64,000 nt of DNA from Nitrososphaeria archaeon (GCA_050011875.1 JBEKIG010000001.1:131736-195735); one strand, 5' to 3'; positions 3,001-39,082 are shown, numbered from the stretch's first letter. Notes: generated from the sequence alone by a model not told the origin. Translations and numbers: made by a program.

Positions 3001-3633
3001 CTACAGGTTATAATCTATACGCTGTACCTCTGTAATGAAATTCTCAAGAAGGCTCCCCAGGAAGTGGGAAATGCCTTGCAAGAAAATCACCTAGAAGATC
3101 TTCTTTCAAGAATTGGAGAGCAGGTGAACTACATGAATAAAATCATCTTAGACCTGCAAGATTATTCAAAGCCCCTAGAACCAAACATTGTCGAGACTAA
3201 TATTTTAGATTTAATCAAGGACACCATCTCTAATATCACTGTTGCAGAAAATATTAAGGTTGCAATTAAGATTCCAGAAAATTTCCCTAGAGTTCCAATG
3301 GATTCTTCTATGATGCAAAGAGTGTTCGTTAATCTTGCTAACAACGCTATGCAGGCGATGTCAGACGGCGGCCAACTGACCTTTGAGTCTTTAATTTCTG
3401 ATGGGACATTAACAATTAGTGTCCAAGATACTGGAGTCGGTATACCCGCAGAGAACATGGACAAGTTGTTTCAGCCTTTATTTACAACCAAATCCAAGGG
3501 TCAAGGATTCGGCCTAGCCGTCTGCAAGCGAATAGTGGAAGCTCACGGTGGAAGTATTTCCGTAGCGAGCGAATCAGGTAAAGGATCAATATTCACAATT
3601 AAGATTCCAATTGGAAAGTTAAAATACTCCTAA
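31..3633 (+). CDS. Multi-sensor (GAF/PAS) signal transduction histidine kinase
   Basis: Three PAS/PAC repeats (DITEHK, TTVRKK, RDITERK), GAF-like segments, H-box AAMVGHDLRNPL, N-box NLANNA, DTGVGI, LFTTK and GQGFGL; TTG start. Confidence 0.95.
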   Translation: MDPTNQPQMKLVEFMRLTDNVSKKIHGVLNEREIFNILKEEFSKSKKYDITILLTNNDRTKLDMEETSLILKNLKKIQKITGLGISKYNIELNKSKIFNRVVNDCETFEVKTGDIISEILPTPFAYLVTRMIGLVGKNTVVTPLNREGKIVGALAISSSEQTEHLMLPVKNLAQNISISLELIDRHNDLLKTEKALEQERNKAQKYLDAAGLITLFIDVNGFVQSINRKGSEFLGYTMQEIVGKNWIDNFLPEKSREHVRMIFTNIVQDPTESNSHYENSVLTRKDGERFLTWNGIRLEDSDGKVIGILNSGNDITEHKKTEDELRASQRTLSSLMSNLSGMMYRRSNDNNWTMSFVSDGCFDLTGYLPSDFVKNKISYSQLVHSRDKKKILDAIQKSLTESKSFKIEYRIFTANGEMKWVWEEGHVISSGTGSYATLEGYVTETTVRKKIEEELKKSEESFRKLAENASDIIFLYDLIRGYDYMSPACIKITGYTPEEFYADKNLTYRTVHPDDVHELTKMMEEVNKQRIPVQSEIRWRHKKGKIVWTEQTYIPIQDEKGDLIAFEGIVRDITERKQIEEDRRRFEDRLSALNFYGVTLNSAQNQQQVFDLTLNAVEKALGFEYAAFLIMDRGYLRLASQRGISRTLIKELPIDDSKRGIDIRAYNTRKAILVDDVWKDRDYVENIPGIRSKLVVPVEIEDRVIGVLNIQSKKVGAFDGRDMKLLQILASHAAAAISSKEKQAEIERRSNQLSSLMKSSAEIIHTTDLYQRLSVTANAIRDLGWRRVVITLRDENLEVKTLDDIVSSGLTNEERDFLWKNTPSPKVWRERFGPEYNRFKIGQFYYLPWSEPWVREKFSDNTVASRLMREEMVDWDPQDLLYAPLTLANGRIVGVLSIDDPVDGRRPTSESLAPLELFIHPAAVGIENAQLIRQLNNATSQIKEYADRLEQMVQQRTQELFEAQNKLIKSERLVAIGEIAAMVGHDLRNPLQVIIYTLYLCNEILKKAPQEVGNALQENHLEDLLSRIGEQVNYMNKIILDLQDYSKPLEPNIVETNILDLIKDTISNITVAENIKVAIKIPENFPRVPMDSSMMQRVFVNLANNAMQAMSDGGQLTFESLISDGTLTISVQDTGVGIPAENMDKLFQPLFTTKSKGQGFGLAVCKRIVEAHGGSISVASESGKGSIFTIKIPIGKLKYS

Positions 3634-7450: not shown

Positions 7451-8558
7451 CAGGGAACGTTTTCTTGCAATGCTGGAACATAGGATACCTGATAAGGTGC
7501 CGATAACGGATTTGGACATAGACGGCTCAATCGTAGAAAAGATCACAGGAGTAAATACAAGTGGAGGTGGGCAGCAATCTCCTATGATAGATAGAAGAAC
7601 CGGCTGGAAGAAGGTTCTAAGGGACGTCGACGCACTAATTGATGCGCACAGGGCATTAGACTTTGACGCCTTTTTGCTCACTAACTACAGAATGTCAAGG
7701 AAAGGGTATAAGCCTAAATTCCTCGATAAGGAAACTTTTGTTGACGAATGGGGTAGAAGGATGAGGATAAGAAAGGATACAGGTATAGTATGGTATTGTG
7801 GGGGAACGATAAACACAGAGGAAGAGCTTGAGGCGTTCAACCCCCCTAATGTGCACGAACCCGGTAGAGAAGAGGTCCTCCTCCATGCAATAAAGAATGC
7901 AGGGGAAGAAATGGCTGTTGGAGGAGAGGTGCAAACTGGTTTTGTAATATCCTGGGAGGCAAGAGGCGGCTTGGACAAGTTGGTAATAGACATGTATAGA
8001 AATCCCACATTTGCGAAGAAGGTGATGAAAAAGTTCGCAGATGCTTGCTTTGAATTCGCTAAGATGATGTTAGATGACGGTGTTGATCTTTTAGTTTTGA
8101 CCGACGATTACGCCGACAATCATGGTCCAATCATAAGCCCAGCTCTTTTCAGAGAATTTGAGCTCTCATACCTAAAGCGTGTTATAGAAACTGCAAATAA
8201 CAGGAATGTTCCTGTCATGAAACACAGCGATGGTAACCTGTATCCTCTATTAGACGACCTTATCGATGCAGGTATTTCAGGATTACATCCCATCGAGCCC
8301 GGACCAATGGATATAGCTGATGTAAAAAAGAGATATGGTGATAGAATATTTTTGGGAGGCAATGTCGACTGTAAAAGGATCCTACCTTTTGGTTCAGAAT
8401 CAGATGTTAGAAAAGACGTTAGAAGGGTAATCGATGCCGCAGGAAAGAACGGTGGGCTCGTACTTACGTCAAGTAATTCCCTGCACTCAGGTGTGAAGGT
8501 TGATAACATATTCACAATGGTCGACGAAGCTAGAAAATATGGTAAATATATAACGTAG
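7437..8558 (+). CDS. Uroporphyrinogen decarboxylase / MtaA-CmuA family protein
   Basis: RERFLAMLEHRIPDKVP, DEWG, HSDGN, GGNVD, GGLVLTSSNSL. Confidence 0.88.
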   Translation: MIGSNRERFLAMLEHRIPDKVPITDLDIDGSIVEKITGVNTSGGGQQSPMIDRRTGWKKVLRDVDALIDAHRALDFDAFLLTNYRMSRKGYKPKFLDKETFVDEWGRRMRIRKDTGIVWYCGGTINTEEELEAFNPPNVHEPGREEVLLHAIKNAGEEMAVGGEVQTGFVISWEARGGLDKLVIDMYRNPTFAKKVMKKFADACFEFAKMMLDDGVDLLVLTDDYADNHGPIISPALFREFELSYLKRVIETANNRNVPVMKHSDGNLYPLLDDLIDAGISGLHPIEPGPMDIADVKKRYGDRIFLGGNVDCKRILPFGSESDVRKDVRRVIDAAGKNGGLVLTSSNSLHSGVKVDNIFTMVDEARKYGKYIT

Positions 8559-27887: not shown

Positions 27888-30638
27888 ATGATGCCTGAAG
27901 AAAAAGCAAGAGTAAAGATCGACCAACTCCTCGAGGCTGCAGGATGGAAAGTTCAAGACATTAAGGAATTGAACTTTAGTGTTTCCTTGGGAGTTGCTGT
28001 ACGAAATTTTTCTTTAGAATCAGGCATCGCTGATTATCTGATCTTTGTTGACAGGAAAGCCGTTGGTGTTATTGAAGCGAAGCCTGAAGGCACAACACTA
28101 AGTGGTGTATCTGAGCAGACTGAAAAGTATTTGCTGGGCGTCCCTGACAATGTTCCGCATGTTCAAGAGCCACTTCCCTTCGCTTATGAGAGCACAGGTG
28201 TTGAAACTTTTTTCAGGGATACGCGTGATCCAGAACCACGTTCTAGGAGAATATTCGCCTTTCATAAACCAGAGACACTCTACGAATGGCTTTCACAAAG
28301 CAGAACTCTTAGGGAAGGACTTAGAAGCATGCCTCCTCTGATGACTGAAGGTTTAAGAGACTGCCAAATCCAAGCGATAAAGAACCTTGAAAGGTCATTT
28401 GCTGAAGCAAGACCTAGAGCACTTATCCAGATGGCGACAGGTAGCGGAAAAACATACACCGCAGTGAACTTCTCTTACAGGTTAATCAAGTTCGCAGGAG
28501 CAAAAAGAATCCTGTTCCTGGTTGATAGGAGAACCCTTGGCAGACAAACGTTTATGGAGTTTGGGCAATTTGTGACTCCTGACGATGGTAGAAAGTTCAC
28601 AGAACTCTATAACGTGCAACATCTCACGTCAAACAAACTAGATACAGTCAGCCGAGTGTGTATTACCACAATTCAAAGACTGTATGCCATGCTAACAGGA
28701 AAGGAAATAGATGAAGAAATTGAAGAATACTCCCTTTTTGATAAGGCTCCAATAGATGAAAAACCGAGGGAAGTATCATATAATCCTAATATTCCGATTG
28801 ACACTTTTGATTTTATTATTACTGATGAATGCCATCGTTCTATTTACCATCTTTGGAGACAAGTTCTCGAATACTTCGATGCTTTCATCATAGGTCTTAC
28901 TGCCACGCCGTCTAAGCAGACGCTTGGTTTCTTTGACCAAAATCTTGTAATGGAATACAGCCATGAACGAGCTGTTGCAGATGGAGTTAACGTTGGATAC
29001 GAGGTTTATCGGATAAAGACGGATATTACAGAGAAGGGTAGCAGGATTGAGGCTGGATATTATGTGGATAAAAGGGACAAGCTTACAAGAAAGAAGCGTT
29101 GGGAGCAACTTGATGAAGATGTAGAGTACAGTCCAACCCAGTTGGATAGAGATGTTGTATCCCCTGACCAGATTAGGACGATCATTGGAACCTTTAAGGA
29201 AAAGTTGTTCACTGAAATATTTCCAGGCAGGAGGGACGTTCCCAAAACTCTTGTCTTTGCTAAGGATGATTCTCACGCAGAGGATATAGTTCAGATTGTT
29301 AGAGAGGAGTTTGGTAAAGGTAACGAGTTTGCGAAGAAGATAACATATAGGACTACGGGTGAAAGGACAGAGGATCTGATAGCGAGCTTCCGCAACTCAT
29401 ACAATCCACGTGTGGCTGTCACAGTTGACATGATCTCAACAGGCACAGACATCAGACCTTTAGAGTGCCTGCTGTTTATGAGAGATGTTAAATCGAGGGT
29501 TTACTTTGAACAGATGAAGGGACGAGGTACTCGAATAATTTCCCCTACGGACTTGAACGCTGTCACCCCAGACGCTCTAAATAAGACTAATTTTGTTATC
29601 GTCGATGCTATAGGGGTTTGTGAGAACGATAAGACCGACTCCCAGCCTCTGGAAAGAAAGAGGAGTGTTCCCTTTGACAAGCTCATTCTGTCAGTTGCCT
29701 TCGGCAACAGAGACGAAGATACATTGAGTTCTCTTGCTGGACGGCTTGCTAGGTTGGATAGGGAAATAGGCCAAGAAGAAAAGCAGGAGATTATGAAGGC
29801 TACGGGCGGATTAACATTGAAGCAGATCGTCAACAAGCTTCTTGATGTAACCGATGTCGACAAGCAGTTGGAAAAGGCAAAGGAGATCTTTAAGACTGAG
29901 ACACCTACGGAGGAGCAGGTGAACAAAGCCTATGAGGAATTGGCTAAAGAAGCATGTATACTATTTGATAACCCAGACATTAGGAACAAGATTATAGACC
30001 TTCAAAAGTTTAGTGAGCAGATTATAGATACTGTTAGCAAAGATCAGACAATCTTCGCAGGCTTTGATGAGCAGGCAAAAGAGAAGGCTAGAACCATCGT
30101 CGATACATTTAAGACTTTTATCAAAGACAACAAAGACGAATTAACAGCCTTACAAATCATCTACAGCAAATCTTACGCTAAACGCCATCTAACTTATGAA
30201 GACATTAAACAGCTTGCCGAAGCGATAAAAAAGCCTCCATATGGTCTAACTACAGAATTGATTTGGCAAGCGTACGAGCAATTGGAAAAATCAAAGGTAA
30301 AAGGGGCAGGCCCACAGAAACTCTTAACAAATATAATTTCTTTAATTCGTTTCACTATAGGAGAAAGCCAAATTCTAGAGCCTTTCTCCCAAACTATAGA
30401 TAATCGGTTCAATGGTTGGTTAAGTCAGCAAGAGGATATTGGGAGAAAGTTCACACCTGAGCAAAAGGAATGGCTCATTATGATAAAGGACCATATTGCT
30501 ACATCATTGAATATCCAAATAGAAGACCTTGAATATGCGCCATTCTACGAAAGAGGTGGTCCCTTGAAAGCATCTCAAATATTTGGAAATGAACTAAATG
30601 AGCTATTAGAAGATTTGAATAAGGCGCTTAATAAATGA
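27888..30638 (+). CDS. hsdR: Type I restriction-modification endonuclease subunit R (EcoEI-like C-terminus)
   Basis: ADYLIF...VIEAK nuclease motif, MATGSGKT, DECH, GLTATP, QMKGRGTR. Confidence 0.95.
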   Translation: MMPEEKARVKIDQLLEAAGWKVQDIKELNFSVSLGVAVRNFSLESGIADYLIFVDRKAVGVIEAKPEGTTLSGVSEQTEKYLLGVPDNVPHVQEPLPFAYESTGVETFFRDTRDPEPRSRRIFAFHKPETLYEWLSQSRTLREGLRSMPPLMTEGLRDCQIQAIKNLERSFAEARPRALIQMATGSGKTYTAVNFSYRLIKFAGAKRILFLVDRRTLGRQTFMEFGQFVTPDDGRKFTELYNVQHLTSNKLDTVSRVCITTIQRLYAMLTGKEIDEEIEEYSLFDKAPIDEKPREVSYNPNIPIDTFDFIITDECHRSIYHLWRQVLEYFDAFIIGLTATPSKQTLGFFDQNLVMEYSHERAVADGVNVGYEVYRIKTDITEKGSRIEAGYYVDKRDKLTRKKRWEQLDEDVEYSPTQLDRDVVSPDQIRTIIGTFKEKLFTEIFPGRRDVPKTLVFAKDDSHAEDIVQIVREEFGKGNEFAKKITYRTTGERTEDLIASFRNSYNPRVAVTVDMISTGTDIRPLECLLFMRDVKSRVYFEQMKGRGTRIISPTDLNAVTPDALNKTNFVIVDAIGVCENDKTDSQPLERKRSVPFDKLILSVAFGNRDEDTLSSLAGRLARLDREIGQEEKQEIMKATGGLTLKQIVNKLLDVTDVDKQLEKAKEIFKTETPTEEQVNKAYEELAKEACILFDNPDIRNKIIDLQKFSEQIIDTVSKDQTIFAGFDEQAKEKARTIVDTFKTFIKDNKDELTALQIIYSKSYAKRHLTYEDIKQLAEAIKKPPYGLTTELIWQAYEQLEKSKVKGAGPQKLLTNIISLIRFTIGESQILEPFSQTIDNRFNGWLSQQEDIGRKFTPEQKEWLIMIKDHIATSLNIQIEDLEYAPFYERGGPLKASQIFGNELNELLEDLNKALNK

Positions 30639-32155
30639 TGAATAAATCATCAAATATACCAGAACTCCCTACCGGATGGTCTTGGACAAATGTAGGAGAG
30701 ATTTCTAAAAAGATACATTATGGGTATACTGCAAGTTCCAAGATTGAACCTGTAGGTCCGAAGATGCTAAGAATCACAGATATTCAAGAAAATGTAGTAA
30801 ATTGGGATTCCGTACCATATTGCGATATAGATCCAAGAGAAAAAAGGAAATATCTTTTAGGCGAAGGCGATTTAGTTTTTGCAAGAACTGGAGCTACTGT
30901 TGGAAAAAGTTATCTAATTAGAGGAAGGATTCCTGAGGCAGTTTTCGCTTCATATTTAATAAGGATCATTCTTTCAGAAAATGTACAAAAGGAATTTGTA
31001 TATTATTTTTTTCAAACTAATAGATATTGGCAACAGATTCGTAGAGGACAAATTGGAATTGGGCAGCCAAATGTAAACTCACAAACTCTGTCTAAAATTA
31101 TACTTCCACTTCCACCCCTTAATGAGCAGCATCGTATTGTTTCTAGGATTGAGGAGCTTTTCACCCGATTGGATGCTGGAGTAGAGTCTTTGAAGAAAGT
31201 TAAGGTTCAGCTAAAGCGTTATCATCAAGCAGTTCTAAAATATGCCTACGAAGGGAAACTGACAGAAAAATGGAGAGAAGAACATAAACGTGAAATCGAA
31301 ATGGCTTCTGCACTTCTAGAAAAAATAAAAGAAAAACGGAGAAGTGACCTGAAGACTCAACAATATGAAATGAAACTAATAGACAAAGATAATTTGTTTC
31401 GACTGCCAAATAGCTGGTTATGGAGTAGAATAGGTGAAATAGCAGAAATTAACCCACGATTGTCAAGTAGTAGTTTGCCCGATGAATTAGAAGTTTCTTT
31501 CTTGCCAATGAGTGCCCTTCAAGAGAAGACTGGGAAGTATGATTTGTCAATTGTAAAGAAATACTCGGAAGTAAAGAGAGGATATACCTCCTTCCAAAAT
31601 GGCGATGTTCTTTTTGCAAAAATAACACCCTGCATGGAAAACGGTAAAATTGCAATAGTAAATGATCTAAAGAATGGAATCGGTTTTGGTTCTACAGAAT
31701 TTCATGTCTTAAGACCTGTATTAGGCAATTTCCCAAGAGAATTTCTCTTTTTTTATTTATTACAAGATAGTCTTAGGAGAGATGCAAAGAGAAATATGAC
31801 CGGAGCAGTAGGGCAATTACGAGTGTCAGTTAAATATATGAGTGACATTGCTATTCCTTTGCCTCCGCTGGAAGAGCTGAGTATCATAGTTAGAGAAATC
31901 ATGAGTAGATTTTCTGCAACCGATAAAGCTGGAGAAATAGTCGAAATAAACCTCAAAAAGGCAGAACAATTAAAACAAAGCATTTTAAAACAAGCTTTCG
32001 TAGGAAAGCTAGTGCAACAGGACCCAACCGATGAATCTGCAGAAAGGTCGCTTGAACGAATAAGAGAGGAGAAATTTTCACATAGTATAGAAGAAAAGGA
32101 TATTACAGGATCAAAGACCTTAGGACAAATGGAGTTAGATCGTTTTGTCAAGTGA
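30635..32155 (+). CDS. hsdS: Type I RM specificity subunit S
   Basis: Two TRDs with ELPTGW/LPNSWLW, LPPLNEQHRIV and QSILKQAFVGKLVQQDP conserved regions. Confidence 0.95.
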   Translation: MMNKSSNIPELPTGWSWTNVGEISKKIHYGYTASSKIEPVGPKMLRITDIQENVVNWDSVPYCDIDPREKRKYLLGEGDLVFARTGATVGKSYLIRGRIPEAVFASYLIRIILSENVQKEFVYYFFQTNRYWQQIRRGQIGIGQPNVNSQTLSKIILPLPPLNEQHRIVSRIEELFTRLDAGVESLKKVKVQLKRYHQAVLKYAYEGKLTEKWREEHKREIEMASALLEKIKEKRRSDLKTQQYEMKLIDKDNLFRLPNSWLWSRIGEIAEINPRLSSSSLPDELEVSFLPMSALQEKTGKYDLSIVKKYSEVKRGYTSFQNGDVLFAKITPCMENGKIAIVNDLKNGIGFGSTEFHVLRPVLGNFPREFLFFYLLQDSLRRDAKRNMTGAVGQLRVSVKYMSDIAIPLPPLEELSIIVREIMSRFSATDKAGEIVEINLKKAEQLKQSILKQAFVGKLVQQDPTDESAERSLERIREEKFSHSIEEKDITGSKTLGQMELDRFVK

Positions 32156-33602
32156 TTCTTCTGCGATTGTCCAGAGGGTTTGGAACTACTGCAATGTGCT
32201 AAGAGATGAAGGAATAAGCTATGGTGACTATGTTGAGCAACTCACCTATCTACTATTCTTGAAGATGGCTGATGAGCAGACAAAAGCACCATTTAACAAA
32301 CCTTCAATTATTCCAAAAGGTTTTGACTGGCAAAGTCTTCTTGAAAAGGATGGTGTAGCACTTGAACAGCATTATCGTGCTATTCTTGATTCTTTAGGTA
32401 AGGAAAAAGGGATGCTTGGTATAATCTTTAGGAAAGCACAGAATAAGATACAAGATCCAGCTAAACTCAAACGCCTGCTTGAACTCATCAACGACGAAAC
32501 TTGGGTGGGAATGGACATAGATGTGAAAGGAGAAATTTATGAAGGTCTATTGCAGAAGAACGCTGAAGATATTAAGGGTGGTGCAGGTCAATACTTCACT
32601 CCGAGACCGCTTATCAAAGCCATAGTAGAAGTGATGAAACCAGAACCTATGATGACTATTTACGATCCAGCATGTGGGACAGGAGGATTCCTTCTAGCAG
32701 CACATGATTATATCTCTAAGAACTATCAGTTGGACATAGAACAGAAACGTTTTCTCAAATACAACACTCTGAAGGGGAAAGATATTGTAGATAATGTGGC
32801 AAGGTTGTGCGTCATGAACCTTTACCTTCATGGAATAGGGGGAGAGGAAAGCCCAATTGAAGTTGGGGATTCTCTTATCTCTGATCCAGGTGAACGCTTC
32901 GACTTTATTCTTACTAATCCACCATTTGGCAGAAAAAGTAGTATTACGATATTTAATGAGGAGGGTGGATCAGGAAAAGAATCACTGCCATACGAGAGAA
33001 CTGATTTTTGGGCAACAACCTCCAATAAGCAGTTAAACTTCCTCCAACATGTAAAAACGCTCCTAAAAATCAATGGGAAAGCAGCTATCGTTGTGCCTGA
33101 TAATGTCCTCTTTGAAGGAGGAGCAGGAGAAACTGTTAGAAAGAAACTGCTTGCGAATTGCGATGTTCACACATTGTTAAGGTTACCTACTGGAGTCTTT
33201 TATGCTCAAGGGGTAAAAGCAAACGTCCTATTTTTTGATAGAAAGCCTGCAAGCGAAAAGCCTTGGACAGAAAAATTATGGATATATGACCTGAGAACAA
33301 ATCAACACTTCACGTTAAAGACAAATCCTCTAAGTTACGAAGACCTTAAAGACTTCATTAAATGCTATAACTTGGAAAATCGTCGCAACAGAGAGGAAAC
33401 AGAAAGGTTCAAAGCCTTTACTTACGAAGAACTTGTCAAACGTGATAAGGCGAACCTTGACATCTTCTGGCTTAAAGACGAAAGCTTGGAAGATACCGAA
33501 AACCTTCCAGATCCAGACATATTAGCAAGGGATATAGCCGAAAACCTCCAATCTGCACTGGAGCAATTCAATAGTATTTATGGAGACTTAGAGAATAGAT
33601 AG
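32145..33602 (+). CDS. hsdM: Type I RM N6-adenine methyltransferase subunit M
   Basis: GQYFTPR, DPACGTGGF (motif I), NPPF (motif IV). Confidence 0.96.
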   Translation: MSSDSSAIVQRVWNYCNVLRDEGISYGDYVEQLTYLLFLKMADEQTKAPFNKPSIIPKGFDWQSLLEKDGVALEQHYRAILDSLGKEKGMLGIIFRKAQNKIQDPAKLKRLLELINDETWVGMDIDVKGEIYEGLLQKNAEDIKGGAGQYFTPRPLIKAIVEVMKPEPMMTIYDPACGTGGFLLAAHDYISKNYQLDIEQKRFLKYNTLKGKDIVDNVARLCVMNLYLHGIGGEESPIEVGDSLISDPGERFDFILTNPPFGRKSSITIFNEEGGSGKESLPYERTDFWATTSNKQLNFLQHVKTLLKINGKAAIVVPDNVLFEGGAGETVRKKLLANCDVHTLLRLPTGVFYAQGVKANVLFFDRKPASEKPWTEKLWIYDLRTNQHFTLKTNPLSYEDLKDFIKCYNLENRRNREETERFKAFTYEELVKRDKANLDIFWLKDESLEDTENLPDPDILARDIAENLQSALEQFNSIYGDLENR

Positions 33603-34098: not shown

Positions 34099-34635
34099 TT
34101 AACTCTTACATCTCGCTTTGGTCTTTTTACCCCACCAATTGTCTGTTGTCGATGCATCTTCCAGTATCTTCTTAACATCTTCGTAGGAGCGAGACCCTTC
34201 TTTAAGTATATAGTAAACTGCGCAACGACTAGGCATCTTTCTTTCATCAATGCCCAGATATATCAGCAAATCCCGAATTGTATCAAAGATGTCGTAGATC
34301 TTGTTCCTGATGCGATCATTATCGGTTGGAACTATGAATACAAGCAAATCAACAGACCCGCATAGACAAGATTGAATTGAGTCAGCAATTATTGCATTTG
34401 TATCATTCAGTTCACTGTCAAGAACTTCAAATATGATTCTGTTCTTGTTTTTCTTCATAAAATATAAGTCGGGAAAGTATTGTATAGGTAAGATTCTCCT
34501 TCGTGTCGCTTGTGGGTGCAAAATGTACAATGGATCTGTACGCCCGTCTCTGACTTCAATACATTTTTGGTTGTTCTCACCCCCGAATTTTCTTATAAAC
34601 TCTATTACCTTCTTATGATAATCTGATTCGCCCAA
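34099..34635 (-). CDS. Hypothetical protein with PD-(D/E)xK-like nuclease motif
   Basis: ESDYH...YFPDLYF...IIFEVLDSE; TTG start. Confidence 0.6.
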   Translation of the reverse strand: MGESDYHKKVIEFIRKFGGENNQKCIEVRDGRTDPLYILHPQATRRRILPIQYFPDLYFMKKNKNRIIFEVLDSELNDTNAIIADSIQSCLCGSVDLLVFIVPTDNDRIRNKIYDIFDTIRDLLIYLGIDERKMPSRCAVYYILKEGSRSYEDVKKILEDASTTDNWWGKKTKARCKS

Positions 34636-34640
34636 TTCAA

Positions 34641-34751
34641 CTACCTTTTTTTCTTTTGCTTTTTAGGTCTGGCATAGAAAGTAACTCTTTTTCTCCTCTT
34701 TCCTAAACTCTCCGCCAAAAAAGAAACCTTCTTCCTCCTAACTTTAACCAT
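34641..34751 (-). CDS. 36-aa highly basic peptide (not in the ORF track)
   Basis: Hand translation gives MVKVRRKKVSFLAESLGKRRKRVTFYARPKKQKKKR*; 17 of 36 residues are K/R; stop lies 5 bp before the next start. Confidence 0.55.
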   Translation of the reverse strand: MVKVRRKKVSFLAESLGKRRKRVTFYARPKKQKKKR

Positions 34752-34887
34752 ATCTTTTCTCTTGGGTTTTCTTAGTGTGACTTACATAAAACCTTTTTTT
34801 CGCAACCTTATAAAATATATCTGCATCTGAATAAATCAACTCTGCCGTCGTCTTAGCCAGATTATAAATAATACCCGAAAAAAAAAG

Positions 34888-35121
34888 TTAATGTGGACTC
34901 CTAACTATCTTCAGGAGCCTTTCGATGTTGGAAATGTTAAGATTTGTATCCTGCACTTTGTAGGAGTGAATGGTAACAGTCTCCTTCTTTATCTGTTTAA
35001 GTCTCCTTTCCTGCTTCTCAGTTATCTTGCCGTAAACTGCTAGGTTGCACGCTGGACAGATACCGTGAGAGAATAGTTCTACATCAGTCCACTGCTTACA
35101 CCTTGGACATTTCCTTGACAA
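34888..35121 (-). CDS. Small zinc-finger protein
   Basis: CPRC...CPAC; preceded by TCGGGT-AAAA-TTG. Confidence 0.75.
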   Translation of the reverse strand: MSRKCPRCKQWTDVELFSHGICPACNLAVYGKITEKQERRLKQIKKETVTIHSYKVQDTNLNISNIERLLKIVRSPH

Positions 35122-35136
35122 TTTTACCCGAAGTGG

Positions 35137-35172
35137 CTAAACTAGAGGTATAAGTCTATCGAAGTTTCTCAT
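35137..35172 (-). CDS. Putative 11-aa micropeptide MRNFDRLIPLV
   Basis: ATG-to-TAG ORF that exactly fills the space between two TCGGGT motifs. Confidence 0.3.
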   Translation of the reverse strand: MRNFDRLIPLV

Positions 35173-35193
35173 ACTATCACCCGAAAAAAAGTG

Positions 35194-35529
35194 TTAGTCT
35201 ATTGCGATCAGCAGTGCTTTCAGCTCTGGACTCAGGTTCAGTTTTTCTAGATCGCTTTTCGGAAGCGGTTGTTCCACCCTGCGTTCTGGTTGGGCAGGCC
35301 CCTGTGCCTGCTGCTCTATTGCACGTTGAATATGCTTGCAGTAGTCTCTTGACCATATGTCAAGTCCCTTATTCTGTCTACCTTTAACGAAGTGTGGACA
35401 GTTACAGGTCCATCTGCCGTTATCGAACTTTACTACATCATAGAACTTGTCTGGAACAGAGTCACTAAGTATGCGGACAGTTTTAACAGCGTAAGTCATC
35501 CCATTCATTGTCTGAATACCATAGGTCAT
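35194..35529 (-). CDS. SWIM zinc-finger protein
   Basis: YDVV...WTCNCPHF...CKHI (CxCx(n)CxH). Confidence 0.85.
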   Translation of the reverse strand: MTYGIQTMNGMTYAVKTVRILSDSVPDKFYDVVKFDNGRWTCNCPHFVKGRQNKGLDIWSRDYCKHIQRAIEQQAQGPAQPERRVEQPLPKSDLEKLNLSPELKALLIAID

Positions 35530-35558
35530 GGGTACCCGAAAAAAATAAGGCTAAAATA

Positions 35559-36212
35559 TTAGGAGATGGCGGTTATAAGTGCTTTTATCTCTGTACTGGA
35601 AACAGGCAGTTCTCCTTCATCGTATATTTCCACGCTTTTAGGCTCCAAGTCGATCTTAATCTCCTCTCCTGTAACCTTTGTCACCTGCAGGGTTTCCTGA
35701 GCTTTAACAAGGAGGTATTCTGTCCTGAAATCTCGGTAACGGATATATCCTGAAGGTATATGATATTTGCTGAGAGCCTGTACCTTCGCCTGCAGGATTG
35801 TGGCAGGTATTGGTTCAGACTTGAACAGCGTCATATCACATCTATATCTCGCATCTAGTTCTCTGAAGTCAACCAAGTAGTAGTTACACTCATTTTCCAT
35901 GGACCACTGCTTGTCTGTAATCGCGGTGTAGACTTCTCCTTCCATCTTTGTTTCTATAATGTTGTATTTTGCTTCCATGTTTATAGCCTGCGTCAACTGT
36001 GACGCAATAACGTTATCCTGTGGCAGCGCGTCCCTATAGTGTGTTCTCGTCCACAAGACGACGTAATCAGGAACAGCAAATGAGAAGTAAGGTTTAGGAC
36101 TTGTCTCCGTTAACGTGATGACTCTGTCCTCGCCCTCGCAGTGTCCGAAAGCTCCCCTTGCAGAGATGCTGGGTGTTGTGCCCAGCACTAACGCTTTACT
36201 TAACCAGTTCAT
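35559..36212 (-). CDS. Hypothetical protein
   Basis: 217-aa ORF preceded by T9-CGGGT-TAA-ATG; no family recognised. Confidence 0.75.
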   Translation of the reverse strand: MNWLSKALVLGTTPSISARGAFGHCEGEDRVITLTETSPKPYFSFAVPDYVVLWTRTHYRDALPQDNVIASQLTQAINMEAKYNIIETKMEGEVYTAITDKQWSMENECNYYLVDFRELDARYRCDMTLFKSEPIPATILQAKVQALSKYHIPSGYIRYRDFRTEYLLVKAQETLQVTKVTGEEIKIDLEPKSVEIYDEGELPVSSTEIKALITAIS

Positions 36213-36230
36213 TTAACCCGAAAAAAAAAG

Positions 36231-36392
36231 TTAGCCACAGTAGACTACTTTCTCCTTGAAGTCTAAGCCTAGATCTCTAAGTTTCTTGACCAGCTTTCTG
36301 ACATCAGTTGTCTTATGCTGGATGAATACTATATCCCCTTCTATTATGAACTCGTTATCGTTTCCGCGGCAGCTGACAGCAGGCTTAGGCAT
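36231..36392 (-). CDS. 53-aa protein ending in Cys-Gly (not in the ORF track)
   Basis: Hand translation gives MPKPAVSCRGNDNEFIIEGDIVFIQHKTTDVRKLVKKLRDLGLDFKEKVVYCG*; start overlaps the upstream stop (ATGCCTAA) and stop abuts the T9CGGGT motif. Confidence 0.7.
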   Translation of the reverse strand: MPKPAVSCRGNDNEFIIEGDIVFIQHKTTDVRKLVKKLRDLGLDFKEKVVYCG

Positions 36393-36594
36393 GTACTGTC
36401 GCCTTGGTTAATGTGCTGGTAGCATTCATTTCCGTTGTTGGTACAACCTTCTGTACGTCAAGGTCTACGCCGAGCTTTGCTAGCTGTTTAGCGAGCTTCT
36501 CTGCTTCAGCGAGACATGTTTTGCCAGAGAAACCGCTGTAAGTCATTTGAATGGTTCCATCTTTGTTTACGGTTGCTGCAATGTTTTTAGGCAT
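36385..36594 (-). CDS. DUF2997-like small protein
   Basis: VNKDGTIQMTYSGFSGKTCLAEAEKLAKQLAKLG fits the DG...G..G..C......L...LG pattern. Confidence 0.75.
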   Translation of the reverse strand: MPKNIAATVNKDGTIQMTYSGFSGKTCLAEAEKLAKQLAKLGVDLDVQKVVPTTEMNATSTLTKATVHA

Positions 36595-36970
36595 ATGCTT
36601 TAATCACCGTTTTATCCTCAACTTTCTTGGTCTCTGTTCTGTATCCGAGCCCTGAAAGAGCCTTGTTTAATGCATGTGCAGTATAGGTCTGTGTTATGAG
36701 GTTCTCGAAGTCAAGTACGTCATGTTCGTACTGGTAGAAGTCTCCTCTTATCTTAACCTTGCCGTCTTCTTCAACGTCTATTCCTATGCCTCTGTGCATG
36801 GTTGAAGTTTTTATTCCTATGATGAAGTCTGAGTGTTTGTTGCCGTAGTAATCCTCGATTTGAGTGCATATTTCTCCCTCGTTCTCTGCTGCAAGCTCTT
36901 GAATGACCTGTTTTAAGAGGTTGATATCAGGGTTCTTCAGCATACATTTCATTAATGAATATTGGCTCAT
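36587..36970 (-). CDS. DUF1257 / Ycf35-like protein
   Basis: MSQYS...LLKQVIQEL...IEDYYG...IGI...GDFY...ITQTYT...GY pattern; adjacent to the DUF2997-like gene. Confidence 0.75.
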   Translation of the reverse strand: MSQYSLMKCMLKNPDINLLKQVIQELAAENEGEICTQIEDYYGNKHSDFIIGIKTSTMHRGIGIDVEEDGKVKIRGDFYQYEHDVLDFENLITQTYTAHALNKALSGLGYRTETKKVEDKTVIKAYA

Positions 36971-36984
36971 ATTACCCGACGCCG

Positions 36985-37185
36985 TTACTTTCGTTCTATC
37001 TTGACACTAAGGTTGGGCTGGTCACCTGCAAGTGGCGGCAAAAGATGTGACAACAGTTGCTCTGCACTGAGGCATCTCACTATACCCGTTGGAGCAGTTT
37101 GTGTCCAACTATCAACCCCTTTGACGTATTTCCATGTTCTGCCATGTTTGGTCGAGATATAGATTACATAGTCAGCGTTCTTCAA
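36985..37185 (-). CDS. Small hypothetical protein
   Basis: 66 aa, WTQTAPTGIVRCLSAEQLLSHLLPPLAG; TTG start with upstream GGTG. Confidence 0.6.
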   Translation of the reverse strand: MKNADYVIYISTKHGRTWKYVKGVDSWTQTAPTGIVRCLSAEQLLSHLLPPLAGDQPNLSVKIERK

Positions 37186-37250
37186 GTGAATAACACCAAA
37201 GGAAAAAAAGGTTGACGCTTGCCATATGTACCCGAAAGAAAAAAGAGGAT

Positions 37251-37530
37251 TTAAAGGCTTGTTACGCTTGGTGTTCCATCTAGTCCGTCTAATAGTGCTT
37301 TCATTGACGCGTTTTGGTCGGTTGAATATCCTTGCCTTATCATTCTGAGGAAGTACGGATCCTGATTCTCGAGCGTGCCGTATATTCTCACATAGTCTTT
37401 GATCTTGTCAGCCCTATTTTTTTACGTCTGGTTTAGTGGTGTTCATCGCTTTCAGTACAACGTCGGTGGTTATCTTTGAGCTGTCTTCGCTATTCTTTAC
37501 CTCAAACTTAAATTTTTTACAGGCAACATA
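37251..37530 (-). pseudogene. C-terminal remnant of an AAA+ ATPase-like protein (lid region), frameshifted
   Basis: YVACKKFKFEV...KITTDVVLKAMNTTKPD, then an extra A in an A7 run (37417-37423); removing one A extends the frame to TAA at 37251; 5' part missing. Confidence 0.5.
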
Positions 37531-37599
37531 TTAGAAAGGAATTCAAGTGTAAAGTATAAAAAGTGTAATATCTTAGATGCCTTTTCTGTTTTTGGGAGC

Positions 37600-38094
37600 T
37601 TACCAAGGAGCTTCATTATTCTCTTGATAATAAGTATTGAAGTTTTTAGCTGAGCTGTATGCATCGAAAATTTGCCAATAGAAGCCTATGATCTCAAGTG
37701 CTATAAGTACAGCGACTATTGCGATAGACCCAAAACCAGCTGATGAAGTCATATTGCTAAAAGGAGGGTATATTAACCTGAATGCAGTTAATAATCCTAA
37801 CGAATAAGACATATAAGCCAAGGACATGATTAAAAGCAGTCCTACGATTAACCATATTATTCCTCTTAGCACTTTTCCAACATAGAAATGTCCGAAACCC
37901 CATATTCCAACTAACCCAAAAATAGCAGAAATCAATGCAGCAAATCCAGGGTTCTTCAATTCCCTCAACTTTGACATAGCTGCAAGAGTAAGAGGGCTAA
38001 ATTCAGCTGGTGCCATGGACATTCTTTCTCCGCAATAAGGACAAAGTATTGCATCTTTTGGAGCCTCTCTTCCACACTTAGGACACGATACCAT
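37600..38094 (-). CDS. Zinc-ribbon + TM2-like membrane protein
   Basis: CPKCG...CPYCG, KNPGFAALIS...GFGHFYVGK, WQIFDAY. Confidence 0.85.
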   Translation of the reverse strand: MVSCPKCGREAPKDAILCPYCGERMSMAPAEFSPLTLAAMSKLRELKNPGFAALISAIFGLVGIWGFGHFYVGKVLRGIIWLIVGLLLIMSLAYMSYSLGLLTAFRLIYPPFSNMTSSAGFGSIAIVAVLIALEIIGFYWQIFDAYSSAKNFNTYYQENNEAPW

Positions 38095-38185
38095 AGGTTA
38101 ATCATTATATGATGAACTTCTTCAATATTAAGTCTTTCTATTAATTGATCTCTAACTTTTTTTGTTTAATGATATTTCAGTAGAA

Positions 38186-39082
38186 TTATACTGTTCCCGT
38201 AAGTAACTGTAAAAGACTTACATATTTAGTATGTTCTACAGTTCCATTTACTATCATTTGCTGCTGCCAAGTAATTGATGCAGTCGCATTAAAAATCTTA
38301 CGAGGAGGAGGAGGAACAAAGCCAAGATACGCAGGATCGGCTTGGTTAGCTATGACAAAATATAGATTACCTTGACAATTAGAACCTGTTGTAAATGATA
38401 TTCTCATATTTGACCCTACATCATAATGTGATGCATTAGAAAGTGTTCCTTGTTTATAGGAGGTAAAATCACTCTGATTTAAAACGTAAGCATATAAAGT
38501 ATCTCTTATTATTACTGTAGTTTGGATAGCTATTGTTGTAGTTTGGTTAGCTGAAACATCAAAGACAATTGTTCTTCCTGATGGAACATTAACAAGCCAC
38601 CAAGTATAATTTTTAGGGGATATAACAAAGTCCTTATCACTTAAAATTACTTCTGAATTTGTTTTTGTTACTTGATGTAATCCTTTTACAGAGTAAGTTT
38701 GTGGTATTATCGGAATAAAAATTATAGTTAATACAATAAGAACGATAATGAGAGAAACAACAACATACTTAACAACATTTCTCTTTTGAACTTTTTTGGT
38801 AATTCGCGAAGTTCCTTCTTCTATTATAATGCCACAATAAGGACAAAGCAAGGCATTCTTGGGAATTTCTCTCTTACATTTTGGACATAGGAATTTACCC
38901 ATTAAACTGGTTGGCAATTTTGTTCCACAATATGGACAAAGTAAAGCGTCAATCGGGACTACTTTTCTACATTCAGGGCAAAATTTTATATTGGTTGAAC
39001 TTCTGATCAATGTTGTTCCACAATATGGACAAAGTTTAGAGTCGTCGGGAATTTCTCTTCCACAATTGGAACAGTTTGCCAT
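38186..39082 (-). CDS. Triple zinc-ribbon, single-TM protein with extracellular beta-sandwich
   Basis: Three CxxC-x10-CPYCG repeats, one TM helix, beta-rich C-terminus. Confidence 0.85.
   Translation of the reverse strand: MANCSNCGREIPDDSKLCPYCGTTLIRSSTNIKFCPECRKVVPIDALLCPYCGTKLPTSLMGKFLCPKCKREIPKNALLCPYCGIIIEEGTSRITKKVQKRNVVKYVVVSLIIVLIVLTIIFIPIIPQTYSVKGLHQVTKTNSEVILSDKDFVISPKNYTWWLVNVPSGRTIVFDVSANQTTTIAIQTTVIIRDTLYAYVLNQSDFTSYKQGTLSNASHYDVGSNMRISFTTGSNCQGNLYFVIANQADPAYLGFVPPPPRKIFNATASITWQQQMIVNGTVEHTKYVSLLQLLTGTV

What the first reader, a model, noticed from the sequence alone, without database searches (positions are those of the whole stretch)
34873..37530. Cassette-like array of small genes, each punctuated by a conserved T-tract + TCGGGT motif
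Seen in sequence: on the minus strand TCGGGT occurs seven times in 2.4 kb, always between genes (+ strand ACCCGA at 34873, 35126, 35179, 35534, 36216, 36974, 37230). Five copies follow a T-rich run that begins 1-13 nt after the previous stop codon (for example TAA-C-T9-CGGGT-TAA-ATG). Six copies lie 3-6 nt before an ATG/TTG. I did not notice this arrangement before genes elsewhere in the window. Cargo: AAA remnant, 66-aa protein, DUF1257-like, DUF2997-like, 53-aa CG-ending protein, 217-aa orphan, SWIM finger, 11-aa peptide, Zn finger. Inference: the motif may be an element-specific expression unit (archaeal oligo-T terminator fused to a non-canonical RBS or RNA-processing site), or a short recombination site for gene shuffling. 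The array may be an early/anti-defence gene set of an archaeal virus or plasmid. The last copy (34873) has no downstream start, consistent with a junction.
Basis: partly seen in the sequence, partly recalled or inferred. Interest (0 to 1): 0.8.

Follow-up and report, generated by a model that had tools for sequence, protein, structure and literature searches.

The report
Conserved linker motif between swappable archaeal genes
A short T-run plus CGGGT sequence sits between small genes in variable gene arrays of one archaeal genus from peat, and related arrays keep the linker while the neighbouring genes differ, so it looks like a lineage-specific gene linker and not the ordinary ribosome-binding site.

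Summary
Seven same-strand TCGGGT lie between eight small minus-strand genes at 34873-37235. Five are fused to a T6-T9 run that begins 1-13 nt after the upstream stop, and six lie 3-6 nt before a start codon. No other 2.5-kb stretch of the 2.64-Mb genome holds five or more on one strand.

It is not the host Shine-Dalgarno site. The 16S 3' end is canonical, host SDs are GGTGA/AGGTG about 8 nt from the start, and CGGGT is not enriched before other genes.

The same linker punctuates non-homologous small genes in the only other genome of the genus (G001, two loci) and on a sediment metagenome contig (L127). It forms no arrays in the other 399 genomes of the class scanned. In two comparisons homology runs through the upstream gene, reaches the linker and stops, with different genes beyond.

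I found no viral, plasmid, integrase or attC signal and no RNA structure.

Best reading (about 0.45): a lineage-specific composite intercistronic linker, made of an oligo-U attenuator and a start-proximal box, that also supplies the short homology at which ORFan cassettes are exchanged. This is an archaeal, chromosomal analogue of T4-type PeSLs and mycobacteriophage start-associated sequences. The function is inferred; no RNA data exist.

The parts
37230..37244 (-). Linker W1: T6CT3 run fused to CGGGT. It starts 6 nt after the TAA at 37251-37253 and ends 4 nt before the ATG at 37223-37225.
   Evidence: PWM score 18.4
36974..36979 (-). Linker W2: TCGGGT without a T-run. It lies 5 nt after the TAA at 36985-36987 and 3 nt before the ATG at 36968-36970.
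36216..36230 (-). Linker W3: C + T9 + CGGGT. It starts 1 nt after the TAA at 36231-36233 and ends 3 nt before the ATG at 36210-36212. The 18-nt unit including the stop codon (36216-36233) is identical to that of W7.
   Evidence: family D2; PWM 19.9
35534..35545 (-). Linker W4: T7 + CGGGT. It starts 13 nt after the TAA at 35559-35561 and ends 4 nt before the ATG at 35527-35529. Homology with the L127 contig ends at 35553.
   Evidence: family D6; PWM 20.6
35179..35193 (-). Linker W5: CAC + T7 + CGGGTGAT. It ends 6 nt before the ATG at 35170-35172. It is the only copy with a full host-type SD (GGTGAT).
   Evidence: PWM 19.6
35126..35131 (-). Linker W6: TCGGGT without a T-run. It lies 5 nt after the TAG at 35137-35139 and 4 nt before the TTG at 35119-35121.
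34873..34887 (-). Linker W7: C + T9 + CGGGT, 1 nt after the TAA at 34888-34890, with no start codon within 12 nt. It marks the distal end of the array.
   Evidence: PWM 21.0
36985..37185 (-). 66-aa ORF with a TTG start and no family hit. The ATG after W1 (37223-37225) is out of frame with it by one base across a T7 run (37203-37209).
36587..36970 (-). 127-aa DUF1257-like protein. Pfam E 0.028. Its homologue in G024 lies in an AAA-DUF1257-DUF2997 operon.
36385..36594 (-). 69-aa DUF2997-like protein (23.5 bits, cut-off 24.1). Its start overlaps the upstream stop (ATGCCTAA), and there is no linker.
36231..36392 (-). 53-aa ORF with no family hit. It has the same overlapping ATGCCTAA junction and no linker upstream.
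35559..36212 (-). 217-aa orphan. Only 2 homologue clusters exist among 1.84 billion representatives (87% and 33% identity). A copy 90% identical at the protein level lies on L127.
35194..35529 (-). 111-aa protein with a weak SWIM zinc-finger match (E 0.0027, below the cut-off).
35137..35172 (-). 11-codon ORF between W5 and W6. It may be a micro-gene or a remnant.
34888..35121 (-). 77-aa protein with CxxC...CxxC, a TTG start and no family hit.
37236..37599 (-). ORF-poor stretch upstream of the array. It holds only a 46-aa ORF (37251-37391) and a 55-aa ORF (37497-37664) that overlaps the end of the next gene. The AAA remnant claimed here was not confirmed. A TTTTTATA-like box lies near 37560.

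Best explanation
The T-run + CGGGT unit is a lineage-specific composite intercistronic linker. It punctuates arrays of small, mostly orphan genes in variable chromosomal islands of one archaeal genus, probably related to Nitrososphaeria.

Inferred action at the RNA level: the oligo-U run placed directly after each stop codon acts as an archaeal-type attenuator or terminator. The CGGGU box, 3-6 nt before the next start, marks the start site of the next cistron in a way that differs from the host's standard Shine-Dalgarno arrangement.

Action at the DNA level (supported by comparison, mechanism inferred): the 12-18-nt near-identical direct repeats are the places where cassettes are joined. Genes are gained, lost and swapped at the linker without disrupting their neighbours. 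This resembles the promoter/terminator cassettes (PeSLs) of T4-type phages, but here no dedicated recombinase is in sight and the setting is a cellular chromosome.

Shown: the motif, its clustering, its lineage restriction, that it is not the host SD, its recurrence before unrelated genes, and homology breaks at it. Inferred: termination, start-site function and recombination at the repeat.
For: 1. Real and unique. Seven copies lie in 2.4 kb on one strand, and this is the only such cluster in 2.64 Mb. CGGGT follows 8 of 4446 T6+ runs, 4 of them here.

2. Not the host SD.
- The 16S 3' end reads GGATCACCTCCT.
- Enriched 5-mers before 2154 long ORFs are GGTGA (5.3x) and AGGTG (4.8x). CGGGT is seen 13 times against 8.7 expected, and 2 of the 13 are array genes. 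TCGGG is seen 8 times against 9.9 expected.
- Among 284 operon-internal genes, canonical SD 4-mers occur in 48%, against 25% of 1364 other genes. GGGT[A/T/C] occurs in 2.5% of both groups. CGGGT occurs in 1 of 284 and 7 of 1364.
- The host distance from the T of (A)GGT(G) to the start peaks at 8 nt (6-11), against 3-6 nt in the array.

3. Shared by related arrays with other cargo.
- L127 has T6-7CGGGT four times plus one T7CTGGT variant in 1756 nt, all on the coding strand.
- G001:C6 has four copies in 1.4 kb before ORFs of 74, 39, 54 and 26 aa.
- G001:C2 has one copy before a 161-aa ORF and a T6CGGGA variant before a 151-aa ORF.
- Of the 9 L127 and G001:C6 sites, none of which was selected for an ATG, 7 have ATG within 0-10 nt against a base rate of 17.9% (p 1.5e-4).
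- A weight matrix trained only on 12 sites from L127 and G001 places 5 of its 8 best hits in the whole G000 genome inside this array.

4. Lineage restriction.
- T6CGGGT is typically present 0-3 times per genome in 401 genomes of the class, and I found arrays only in G000 and G001 among the loci I inspected.
- Motif+ATG occurs 8 and 8 times in the two genomes of genus g1, against 2 and 2 for the reversed control. The three g2 genomes have 1-2 against 1-2.

5. Cargo changes at the linker.
- Window against L127: 89.7% nucleotide identity over 370 nt through the 217-aa gene. It ends 6 nt past the stop, in the T-run, and nothing similar follows.
- G001 C2 against C6: a block of about 75 nt (86% identity) ends with CGGGT and diverges immediately after it.
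- Linker subfamilies share extra flanking bases (18-nt and 23-nt families), as expected for copied linkers.

6. Only 1-2 of the 6 array starts have a TATA-like box where host genes have one (-40 to -26). The genes therefore look co-transcribed and would need an internal start signal.

7. The linkers are unstructured: z-scores run from -0.7 to +1.5 at 7 of 7 sites.

8. PeSL precedent: composite regulatory motifs that flank ORFans and mediate modular shuffling (PMC2839356, passages read).
Against: - There are no RNA data, so termination, processing and translation roles are untested.
- Breakpoints at gene boundaries are also what selection would leave after random illegitimate recombination. The spacers are only 14-29 nt and are mostly motif, so a break 'at the linker' is weak evidence that the linker causes recombination.
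- Only two clean breakpoint comparisons exist, plus hints from one unseen contig.
- Repeats of 12-18 nt are short for homologous recombination.
- No joint at a linker was seen in four metagenome runs. Contigs do not show rare variants.
- Two of the seven copies lack the T-run. Genes inside the DUF1257/DUF2997/53-aa block use overlapping stop-start junctions instead of the linker.
- Several downstream 'genes' are tiny (11-26 codons) and may be debris.
- T6+ runs after stop codons are not the host norm (111 of 2156 genes, 5.1%, against 2.3% of random windows), so a terminator role cannot be read off from host usage.
- GGGU can still pair with the anti-SD at 3-4 positions, so a weak SD role is not excluded.
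Confidence: 0.45

Rival explanations
1. It is purely an expression signal. An oligo-U terminator/attenuator is fused to a non-canonical ribosome-binding or termination-reinitiation box. The box is read by the host ribosome or by a factor encoded elsewhere. The mosaic gene content is ordinary illegitimate recombination filtered by selection, and the motif plays no part in it.
For: - Fixed geometry: the T-run starts 1-13 nt after the stop and the box lies 3-6 nt before the start at 6 of 7 sites.
- ATG is enriched after the motif in the window and in other loci.
- Most array genes lack a TATA-like box.
- GGGU can pair with 3'-UCCA-5' of the anti-SD, and W5 and one L127 site carry full GGTGA.
- The region is unstructured and therefore accessible.
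- SAS precedent: an SD-overlapping conserved box 3-7 bp before starts, of unknown function (PMC3203893, passages read).
Against: - The box is not used by host genes, operon-internal ones included, and it sits 2-5 nt closer to the start than host SDs.
- The invariant C and the fused T-run are not explained by anti-SD pairing.
- Extended identity between linkers points to copying, not to convergent selection.
- A T9 terminator 10 nt before a start with no promoter in between would starve the downstream gene.
Confidence: 0.25
2. It is a binding or cleavage site for a specific protein or RNA. It could be an orientation-dependent operator that silences the array (stoperator-like), or an endoribonuclease processing site that cuts the polycistronic RNA into monocistronic units.
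For: - The motif is asymmetric, in one orientation only, in short intergenic spacers, and rare elsewhere in the genome.
- It is conserved across unrelated neighbouring genes.
- Small Zn-finger/SWIM-like proteins are encoded in the array.
Against: - No candidate binder is conserved between the three arrays: the cargo is non-homologous.
- No known nuclease or repressor family was detected.
- No structure was found.
Confidence: 0.1
3. It is a neutral relic. The linkers descend from one ancestral spacer, copied along with segmental duplications or rearrangements in decaying islands, and have no present function.
For: - Many downstream ORFs are very short (11, 13, 15, 17 and 26 codons), and there are frameshift-like breaks.
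- A possible decayed stretch lies upstream.
- Linker subfamilies share flanks.
Against: - The core is kept intact in loci whose coding parts share about 90% identity or none at all, in two genomes and a third population.
- The neighbouring genes are unrelated, so there is no sign of segmental duplication.
- The geometry relative to stops and starts is maintained.
Confidence: 0.1
4. It is an integron-like or other site-specific cassette system, with T-run + CGGGT as the recombination site of a dedicated recombinase. A related idea is that this is the early-gene region of an integrated virus or plasmid.
For: - The architecture is cassette-like, with small promoter-less ORFs on one strand.
- Cargo turns over at the site.
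- Integrons exist in Archaea (bioRxiv 10.1101/2022.02.06.479319, passages read).
Against: - PF00589 matches lie only on C6, C16 and C36, none on C1.
- Spacers of 14-29 nt cannot hold an attC, and no fold was found.
- Only one weak PHROG hit, no relatives in viral contigs, and no att repeats.
- The G001 arrays lie in different, ordinary chromosomal contexts.
Confidence: 0.05

Closest known systems
PeSLs (promoter-early stem-loop cassettes) of T4-type phages (Arbiol et al. 2010, PMC2839356; passages read)
   Same: Both are short, conserved, composite regulatory motifs that flank small ORFan genes in hyperplastic regions. Each combines a transcription stop with an expression signal for the next gene. 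Gene insertions, deletions and replacements have their junctions in the motifs. No dedicated recombinase is known for either.
   Different: A PeSL is a sigma-70 promoter plus a GC stem-loop, tens of nt long, in a phage genome, and mini-circles were shown by experiment. Here there is no promoter, no stem-loop, an oligo-T run plus a 5-nt box (12-18 nt), an archaeal chromosome, and no experimental evidence.
Start-associated sequences (SAS) of Cluster K mycobacteriophages (Pope et al. 2011, PMC3203893; passages read)
   Same: Both are asymmetric short repeats in one orientation only. Both lie 3-7 bp before start codons, mostly ATG, of unrelated non-structural genes. Both partly overlap SD-like bases yet have conserved positions that cannot pair with 16S rRNA. 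Both are nearly absent from the host genome. Function is unknown for both.
   Different: SAS is 13 bp, contains a strong AGGAG core, has no fused T-run, and lies in phage genomes. Here SD complementarity is weak, spacing is shorter than for host SDs, the motif is fused to a post-stop T-run, and there is no phage context.
Integron attC sites and cassette arrays, including archaeal integrons (bioRxiv 10.1101/2022.02.06.479319; passages read)
   Same: Arrays of small, promoter-less, same-strand genes, each followed by a recurring site. Cargo varies between relatives.
   Different: attC sites are longer imperfect inverted repeats that fold as single strands and need an IntI tyrosine recombinase. 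Neither feature is present here.
Archaeal oligo-T intrinsic terminators (general knowledge, recalled; no paper read here)
   Same: A run of 6-9 T directly downstream of a stop codon, without a hairpin.
   Different: Ordinary terminators are not followed within about 10 nt by the next start codon, and they do not carry an invariant CGGGT. In this genome only 5.1% of long ORFs have a T6+ run within 32 nt of the stop.
Conserved intergenic recombination motifs reported for Sulfolobus conjugative plasmids (recalled from Greve et al. 2004; not found in the library; not verified)
   Same: A short conserved intergenic motif in an archaeal genetic element, proposed as a site of rearrangement.
   Different: That case concerns plasmids and a different motif. 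I could not check the details.

Membership tests
Host Shine-Dalgarno site | Complementarity to the 3' end of the host 16S rRNA | tested here: not met
   The 16S 3' end reads GGATCACCTCCT. CGGGU pairs at only 3-4 positions, counting a G.U pair. Only 1 of the 6 start-linked copies (W5, GGTGAT) is a full match.
Host Shine-Dalgarno site | Same spacing to the start codon as host SDs | tested here: not met
   Host distance from the T of (A)GGT(G) to the start: mode 8 nt, range 6-11. Array: 3, 3, 4, 4, 4 and 6 nt.
Host Shine-Dalgarno site | Enriched before ordinary host genes, especially operon-internal ones | tested here: not met
   CGGGT 13 against 8.7 expected before 2154 ORFs, 2 of the 13 being array genes. 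It occurs in 1 of 284 internal genes and 7 of 1364 others. GGGT[ATC] is 2.5% in both groups.
Archaeal oligo-T terminator | Run of 5 or more T just downstream of the stop codon | tested here: met
   Five of 7 linkers have T6-T9 (one interrupted by a C) starting 1-13 nt after the stop.
Archaeal oligo-T terminator | Transcript 3' ends at the run | not testable with these tools
   No RNA run is listed for this DNA.
Integron (attC / IntI) | Adjacent integron-type tyrosine recombinase | tested here: not met
   There are 4 PF00589 matches in the genome (C6, C16 twice, C36) and none on C1, which holds the window.
Integron (attC / IntI) | attC: imperfect inverted repeat that folds as a single strand | tested here: not met
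   Spacers are 14-29 nt. The 7 folds give z-scores of -0.7 to +1.5. The Rfam gathering scan of the window returned only a tRNA.
PeSL-like mobile regulatory cassette | Composite of promoter and stem-loop terminator | tested here: not met
   A TATA-like box at the host position occurs before only 1-2 of 6 starts. No stem-loop was found.
PeSL-like mobile regulatory cassette | Flanks ORFans in a variable region, with replacement junctions in the motif | tested here: met
   The genes are orphans or have only weak family matches. The array was not found in 40 relatives. Homology ends at the linker in window/L127 and in G001 C2/C6.
PeSL-like mobile regulatory cassette | Recombination between motifs yields excised circles | not testable with these tools
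   Only contigs were available. No joint at a linker appears among the listed joints.
Start-associated sequence (SAS)-like element | Conserved asymmetric repeat a few nt upstream of starts of unrelated genes, in one orientation, rare in the host genome | tested here: met
   Six of 7 copies are 3-6 nt before starts, all on one strand. Five of the 8 best PWM hits genome-wide lie in the array.
Start-associated sequence (SAS)-like element | Resides in a phage genome | tested here: not met
   There is one weak PHROG hit (E 0.0095) among 10 proteins. No related viral contigs were found.
Integrated virus/plasmid early region | Hallmark genes (integrase, replication, capsid) and att sites | tested here: not met
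   Searches found none between about 24 kb and 46 kb of the window. Several ORFs there have no family hit, so absence is not proven.

The most novel reading that the evidence does not exclude
The T-run + CGGGT linker is a dedicated cassette-joining site of a previously unrecognised, integrase-independent gene-shuffling system in a Nitrososphaeria-like archaeal lineage. ORFan micro-genes would move between chromosomal islands, and between strains, as linker-bounded units, possibly through excised circles. The same linker would insulate each unit transcriptionally and drive its translation through a non-SD start signal. It would be a cellular, archaeal counterpart of phage PeSL cassettes and integron cassettes.
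Probability: 0.2. Interest if true: 0.8.

Novelty: new variant of a known kind. Interest (0 to 1): 0.58.

Why it matters
How orphan genes are gained, tried out and lost is understood for integrons and a few phages. Very little is known for archaeal chromosomes.

A 12-18-nt linker that is conserved while the genes on either side change gives a concrete, searchable handle on such turnover in an uncultured peat and sediment archaeal lineage. It also points to a start-site signal that the host's own genes do not use.

If the linker proves to act in recombination or in non-SD translation initiation, it would extend the idea of mobile regulatory cassettes from phages to archaeal cells. If it proves to be only a terminator plus a weak RBS, it is still a useful marker for variable islands in this genus.

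Tried and rejected
Host SD variant: rejected.

General host terminator consensus: rejected. CGGGT follows 8 of 4446 T6+ runs.

RNA structure, hairpin terminator or attC-like fold: nothing significant at 7 of 7 sites. Some copies elsewhere (G000 C5, C7 and C13, and one L127 site) can form a small CCC-T6-GGG hairpin. Most cannot.

Own promoters per cassette: TATA-like boxes at host positions occur before only 1-2 of 6 starts.

Viral origin:
- The search for related loci in viral contigs with the 127-aa protein, the 217-aa protein and alignment A1 found no relatives.
- DNA scans of viral contigs gave one chance hit with the 18-nt linker. The pattern T7CGGGT-N3-6-ATG gave 120 or more hits whose TCGGGT clusters were high-GC coding sequence.

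Genome contigs with A1: no relatives.

The search for homologous proteins with the 127-aa protein: only itself.

Exhaustive search with the 217-aa protein: 2 clusters only.

AlphaFold2 of the 217-aa protein from a 3-row alignment: mean pLDDT 33.6, unusable, so no fold search was made.

PADLOC: nothing relevant for the array proteins.

AAA remnant: not confirmed.

The 53-aa ORF as a DUF2997 paralogue: no BLASTP alignment.

G037's 26 T6CGGGT copies lie inside a multicopy repeat and are irrelevant.

The genus g57 genomes with 4-5 copies have them dispersed on different contigs.

G000 contig C13, with several weak PWM hits, is an ordinary gene neighbourhood.

Synteny between the window array and the G001 arrays: none.

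ACCCGA, the complement of the box, occurs once in each of the two 16S pieces. That is uninformative for a 6-mer.

RNA evidence: no RNA holder is listed. Four DNA runs were laid. X1 and X2 are identical to the window and may be its source. X3 has low cover. X4 (sediment) holds relatives of about 85-90% identity, with indels at two T-runs, and no joint at a linker appears among the listed joints.

L126 is identical to the window and adds nothing.

Literature:
- Searches for the recalled Sulfolobus plasmid recombination-motif paper did not find it.
- In the thaumarchaeal mobile-element survey (PMC6563490), a term search found no mention of such a motif. I searched for 'sequence motif', 'terminator', 'Shine-Dalgarno' and 'SWIM' and saw passages only.
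- I did not search the literature for the motif itself, so I make no claim that it is not in print. Supplementary files were not consulted.

Full report
THE OBSERVATION

Reading the minus strand of 34500-38000 and searching the window confirms TCGGGT at all seven stated positions. Five copies are fused to T-rich runs: T6CT3, T9, T7, T7 and T9. These runs begin 6, 1, 13, 3 and 1 nt after the stop codon of the upstream ORF. Six copies lie 4, 3, 3, 4, 6 and 4 nt before ATG or TTG. The last copy (34873) has no start within 12 nt.

The window-wide count is unremarkable: 22 copies against 16.0 +/- 4.2 in shuffles. The clustering is what stands out. The whole 2.64-Mb assembly holds 612 strand-specific copies. 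This is the only place with five or more in 2.5 kb on one strand, and the Poisson expectation for seven or more is 5.5e-5 windows. T5CGGGT occurs 15 times genome-wide, four of them here. CGGGT follows 8 of 4446 T6+ runs, four of them here. The repeat finder recovered the linkers as 18-nt and 23-nt direct-repeat families.

IS IT THE HOST RIBOSOME-BINDING SITE?

The assembly's 16S gene is split. Its 3' end lies at the start of contig C15 and reads ...GGATCACCTCCT, which is canonical.

I used a crude gene set of 2164 non-overlapping ORFs of 100 aa or more. The 5-mers enriched at -18 to -3 are GGTGA (5.3x), AGGTG (4.8x), GTGAT and GAGGT. CGGGT appears 13 times against 8.7 expected, and two of those 13 are array genes. 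TCGGG appears 8 times against 9.9 expected.

Operon-internal genes are the fair comparison for this array. Among 284 of them, canonical SD 4-mers occur in 48%, against 25% of 1364 other genes. GGGT followed by A, T or C is 2.5% in both groups. CGGGT occurs in 1 of 284 and 7 of 1364. The host distance from the T of (A)GGT(G) to the start peaks at 8 nt (6-11), whereas the array has 3-6 nt.

So the box is not the host's SD by sequence, by spacing or by usage. Only W5 (GGTGAT, 6 nt) would pass as one.

IS IT THE HOST TERMINATOR CONSENSUS?

T6+ runs within 32 nt of a stop occur in 111 of 2156 long ORFs (5.1%), against 2.3% of random windows. What follows such runs is heterogeneous. Fusion of a T-run to CGGGT is therefore special to these loci.

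RELATED LOCI

The array genes are nearly orphan. The 127-aa protein has only itself in the word-indexed search. The 217-aa protein has two homologue clusters among 1.84 billion representatives. Neither array gene used as a query (the 127-aa and 217-aa proteins) was found in 40 relatives, including the one other genome of the genus. The exception is a distant hit of the DUF1257-like gene in G024. There, an intact AAA / DUF1257-like / DUF2997 operon has overlapping stop-start junctions and no linker.

One protein-seeded metagenome scan returned L126, which is identical to the window, and L127, a 1756-nt contig. L127 carries a copy of the 217-aa gene's C-terminal part that is 90% identical at the protein level. 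After the stop it has a T7CTGGT variant and then entirely different genes. T5-7 (one run broken by a C) + CGGGT recurs four more times on the coding strand, each 4-10 nt before ATG or GTG.

A scan of 401 genomes of the class for T6CGGGT gave 0-3 copies in most genomes. G000 has 8 and G001 (same genus) has 4, two of them 1.3 kb apart. G037's 26 copies lie inside a multicopy repeat. The copies in the g57 genomes are dispersed.

In G001 contig C6, four T5-6CGGGT lie within 1.4 kb on one strand, before ORFs of 74, 39, 54 and 26 aa. A linker-free FMN-reductase gene is inserted among them. On G001 contig C2, a linker precedes a 161-aa ORF and a T6CGGGA variant precedes the next ORF. These loci are not syntenic with the window, and their genes are unrelated to the window's. 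One weak similarity exists between the L127 52-aa and G001 54-aa ORFs (E 6e-4).

Three further counts support a shared motif:
- Motif+ATG occurs 8 and 8 times in the two g1 genomes, against 2 and 2 for the reversed control. Three genomes of the neighbouring genus have 1-2 against 1-2.
- A weight matrix built only from the 12 L127 and G001 sites places 5 of its 8 best hits in all of G000 inside the window array. The other three are isolated sites on C5, C7 and C8.
- Of the nine L127 and G001:C6 sites, which were found without asking for a start codon, seven have ATG within 0-10 nt. The base rate is 108 of 605 (p 1.5e-4). The G001 sites on C2 and C16 (except C2:155, first seen) came from a pattern that required ATG, and they are not counted here.

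TURNOVER AT THE LINKER

Window against L127: there is 89.7% identity over 370 nt, ending at window 35553. That is 6 nt past the stop of the 217-aa gene, in the T-run. No similarity follows by blastn or tblastx.

G001 C2 against C6: a block of about 75 nt (86% identity) ends with ...T6-7CGGGT, and the sequences diverge immediately afterwards.

In the sediment run X4, contigs about 85-90% identical to the array show a 2-nt shorter T-run at W7. They also show a badly fitting stretch between the W3 T-run and the upstream stop. I could not see those contigs, so this is only a hint.

Breaks at gene boundaries are also what selection leaves after random recombination, and the spacers are almost all motif. 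These comparisons therefore show that the linker is where units are joined. They do not show that the linker causes the joining.

WHAT IT IS NOT

I found no sign of a virus or plasmid:
- One weak PHROG hit among ten proteins.
- No related IMG/VR contigs, and only chance motif hits there.
- PF00589 matches only on other contigs.
- No att-like repeats and unremarkable composition.

The neighbours are a type I restriction-modification system and zinc-ribbon membrane proteins. No RNA structure was found at any of the seven sites, and the Rfam gathering scan found nothing but a tRNA. An integron is excluded by the missing IntI and by spacers of 14-29 nt. The 'AAA remnant' was not confirmed.

HOW IT MOST LIKELY WORKS

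Host genes typically carry a TATA-like box 26-40 nt before the start. Only W1 and W4 have something similar, so the array is probably co-transcribed from upstream.

I therefore read the unit as an intercistronic linker. The oligo-U run after each stop would attenuate transcription, by analogy with archaeal oligo-T terminators (recalled knowledge). The CGGGU box would serve the next start in a non-standard register. The 12-18-nt near-identical repeats would be the joints at which cassettes are exchanged.

Linker subfamilies share extra bases, which suggests the linkers are copied and not reinvented. I put this composite reading at about 0.45. The alternatives are an expression-only signal at 0.25, a protein- or RNA-binding or processing site at 0.10, a neutral relic at 0.10, and a site-specific or viral system at 0.05.

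COMPARISON WITH KNOWN SYSTEMS

The closest analogues are two.
- The PeSL cassettes of T4-type phages are composite promoter/terminator motifs that flank ORFans and mediate modular shuffling (PMC2839356, passages).
- The start-associated sequences of Cluster K mycobacteriophages are an asymmetric 13-bp repeat 3-7 bp before starts of unrelated genes, partly SD-like, nearly absent from the host, and of unknown function (PMC3203893, passages).

The present element shares the logic of both but is a member of neither. It has no promoter, no stem-loop, no strong SD core and no phage. It is also shorter, and it sits in archaeal chromosomes.

VERDICT

This is a real, statistically strong, lineage-restricted linker motif with cargo turnover at it. 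Its function is untested. I rate it a new variant of a known kind, with interest about 0.58.

The organism is an archaeon: its 16S matches the archaeal SSU model at 777 bits. A TackOD1 'thaumarchaeal output domain' in the congeneric genome suggests Nitrososphaeria, but I did not verify the taxonomy.

Noticed in passing
window 27888-33602 (+): A complete type I restriction-modification system, hsdR (916 aa), hsdS (506 aa) and hsdM (485 aa), lies directly beside the array. The 178-aa ORF at 34099-34635 (-) has a faint type II REase-like match (PADLOC E 0.006).
   Followed up: partly
window 37600-39082 (-): Two zinc-ribbon membrane proteins lie here: 164 aa with a TM2-like part, and 298 aa with several double zinc ribbons. 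The ribbon-coding repeats show as a 56-nt direct-repeat family with 93-nt spacing. Zinc-ribbon proteins also flank the G001:C6 array (L128 10457-11463).
   Followed up: partly
window 36587-36594 and 36385-36392 (-): The three genes of the DUF1257-like / DUF2997-like / 53-aa block are joined by the same 8-nt overlapping stop-start junction (ATGCCTAA) instead of the linker. Both downstream proteins begin MPK.
   Followed up: no
window 37203-37225 (-): The ATG placed 4 nt after linker W1 opens only 17 codons. It is one base out of frame with the 66-aa ORF across a T7 run. This could be a frameshifted gene, a homopolymer error or slippage. Contigs of runs X1 and X2 agree with the window here.
   Followed up: partly
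window 34641-34751 (-): A 36-aa ORF that is extremely rich in Lys and Arg lies just beyond the last linker.
   Followed up: no
window 35351-35400: Contigs in runs X1 and X2 show a variant that skips 48 nt (in frame) inside the SWIM-like gene, at a depth like the main form. A second variant skips 79 nt at 37738-37818 in the TM2-like gene.
   Followed up: no
G000 C5:10931-10953 and C7:53830-53852: The two best PWM hits in the genome are isolated linkers (CCC-T6/7-CGGGT, able to form a small hairpin). Each is followed after 4 nt by an ATG that opens only 16 or 13 codons. They may be solo remnants.
   Followed up: partly
L131 (G001:C2) 91-163 and L128 (G001:C6) 7636-7712: A block of about 75 nt that encodes the C-terminal 25 residues of a small ORF is duplicated (86% identity) in G001. 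Both copies end in the linker.
   Followed up: yes
G037 (L129, L130): This 4.3-Mb genome of the class has 26 T6CGGGT copies because the string lies inside a multicopy repeat of about 50 nt or more, probably an insertion sequence.
   Followed up: partly
G000 C45:2863-3710 and the rc start of C15: The 16S rRNA gene is split over two contig ends. The 5' half lies on C45 and the 3' end on C15.
   Followed up: partly
L003 (G024:C25) 974-3287 (-): An intact AAA ATPase (491 aa, best PADLOC match IetA-like) / DUF1257-like / DUF2997 / 80-aa operon with overlapping junctions. It is the apparent ancestral context of two of the window's array genes.
   Followed up: partly
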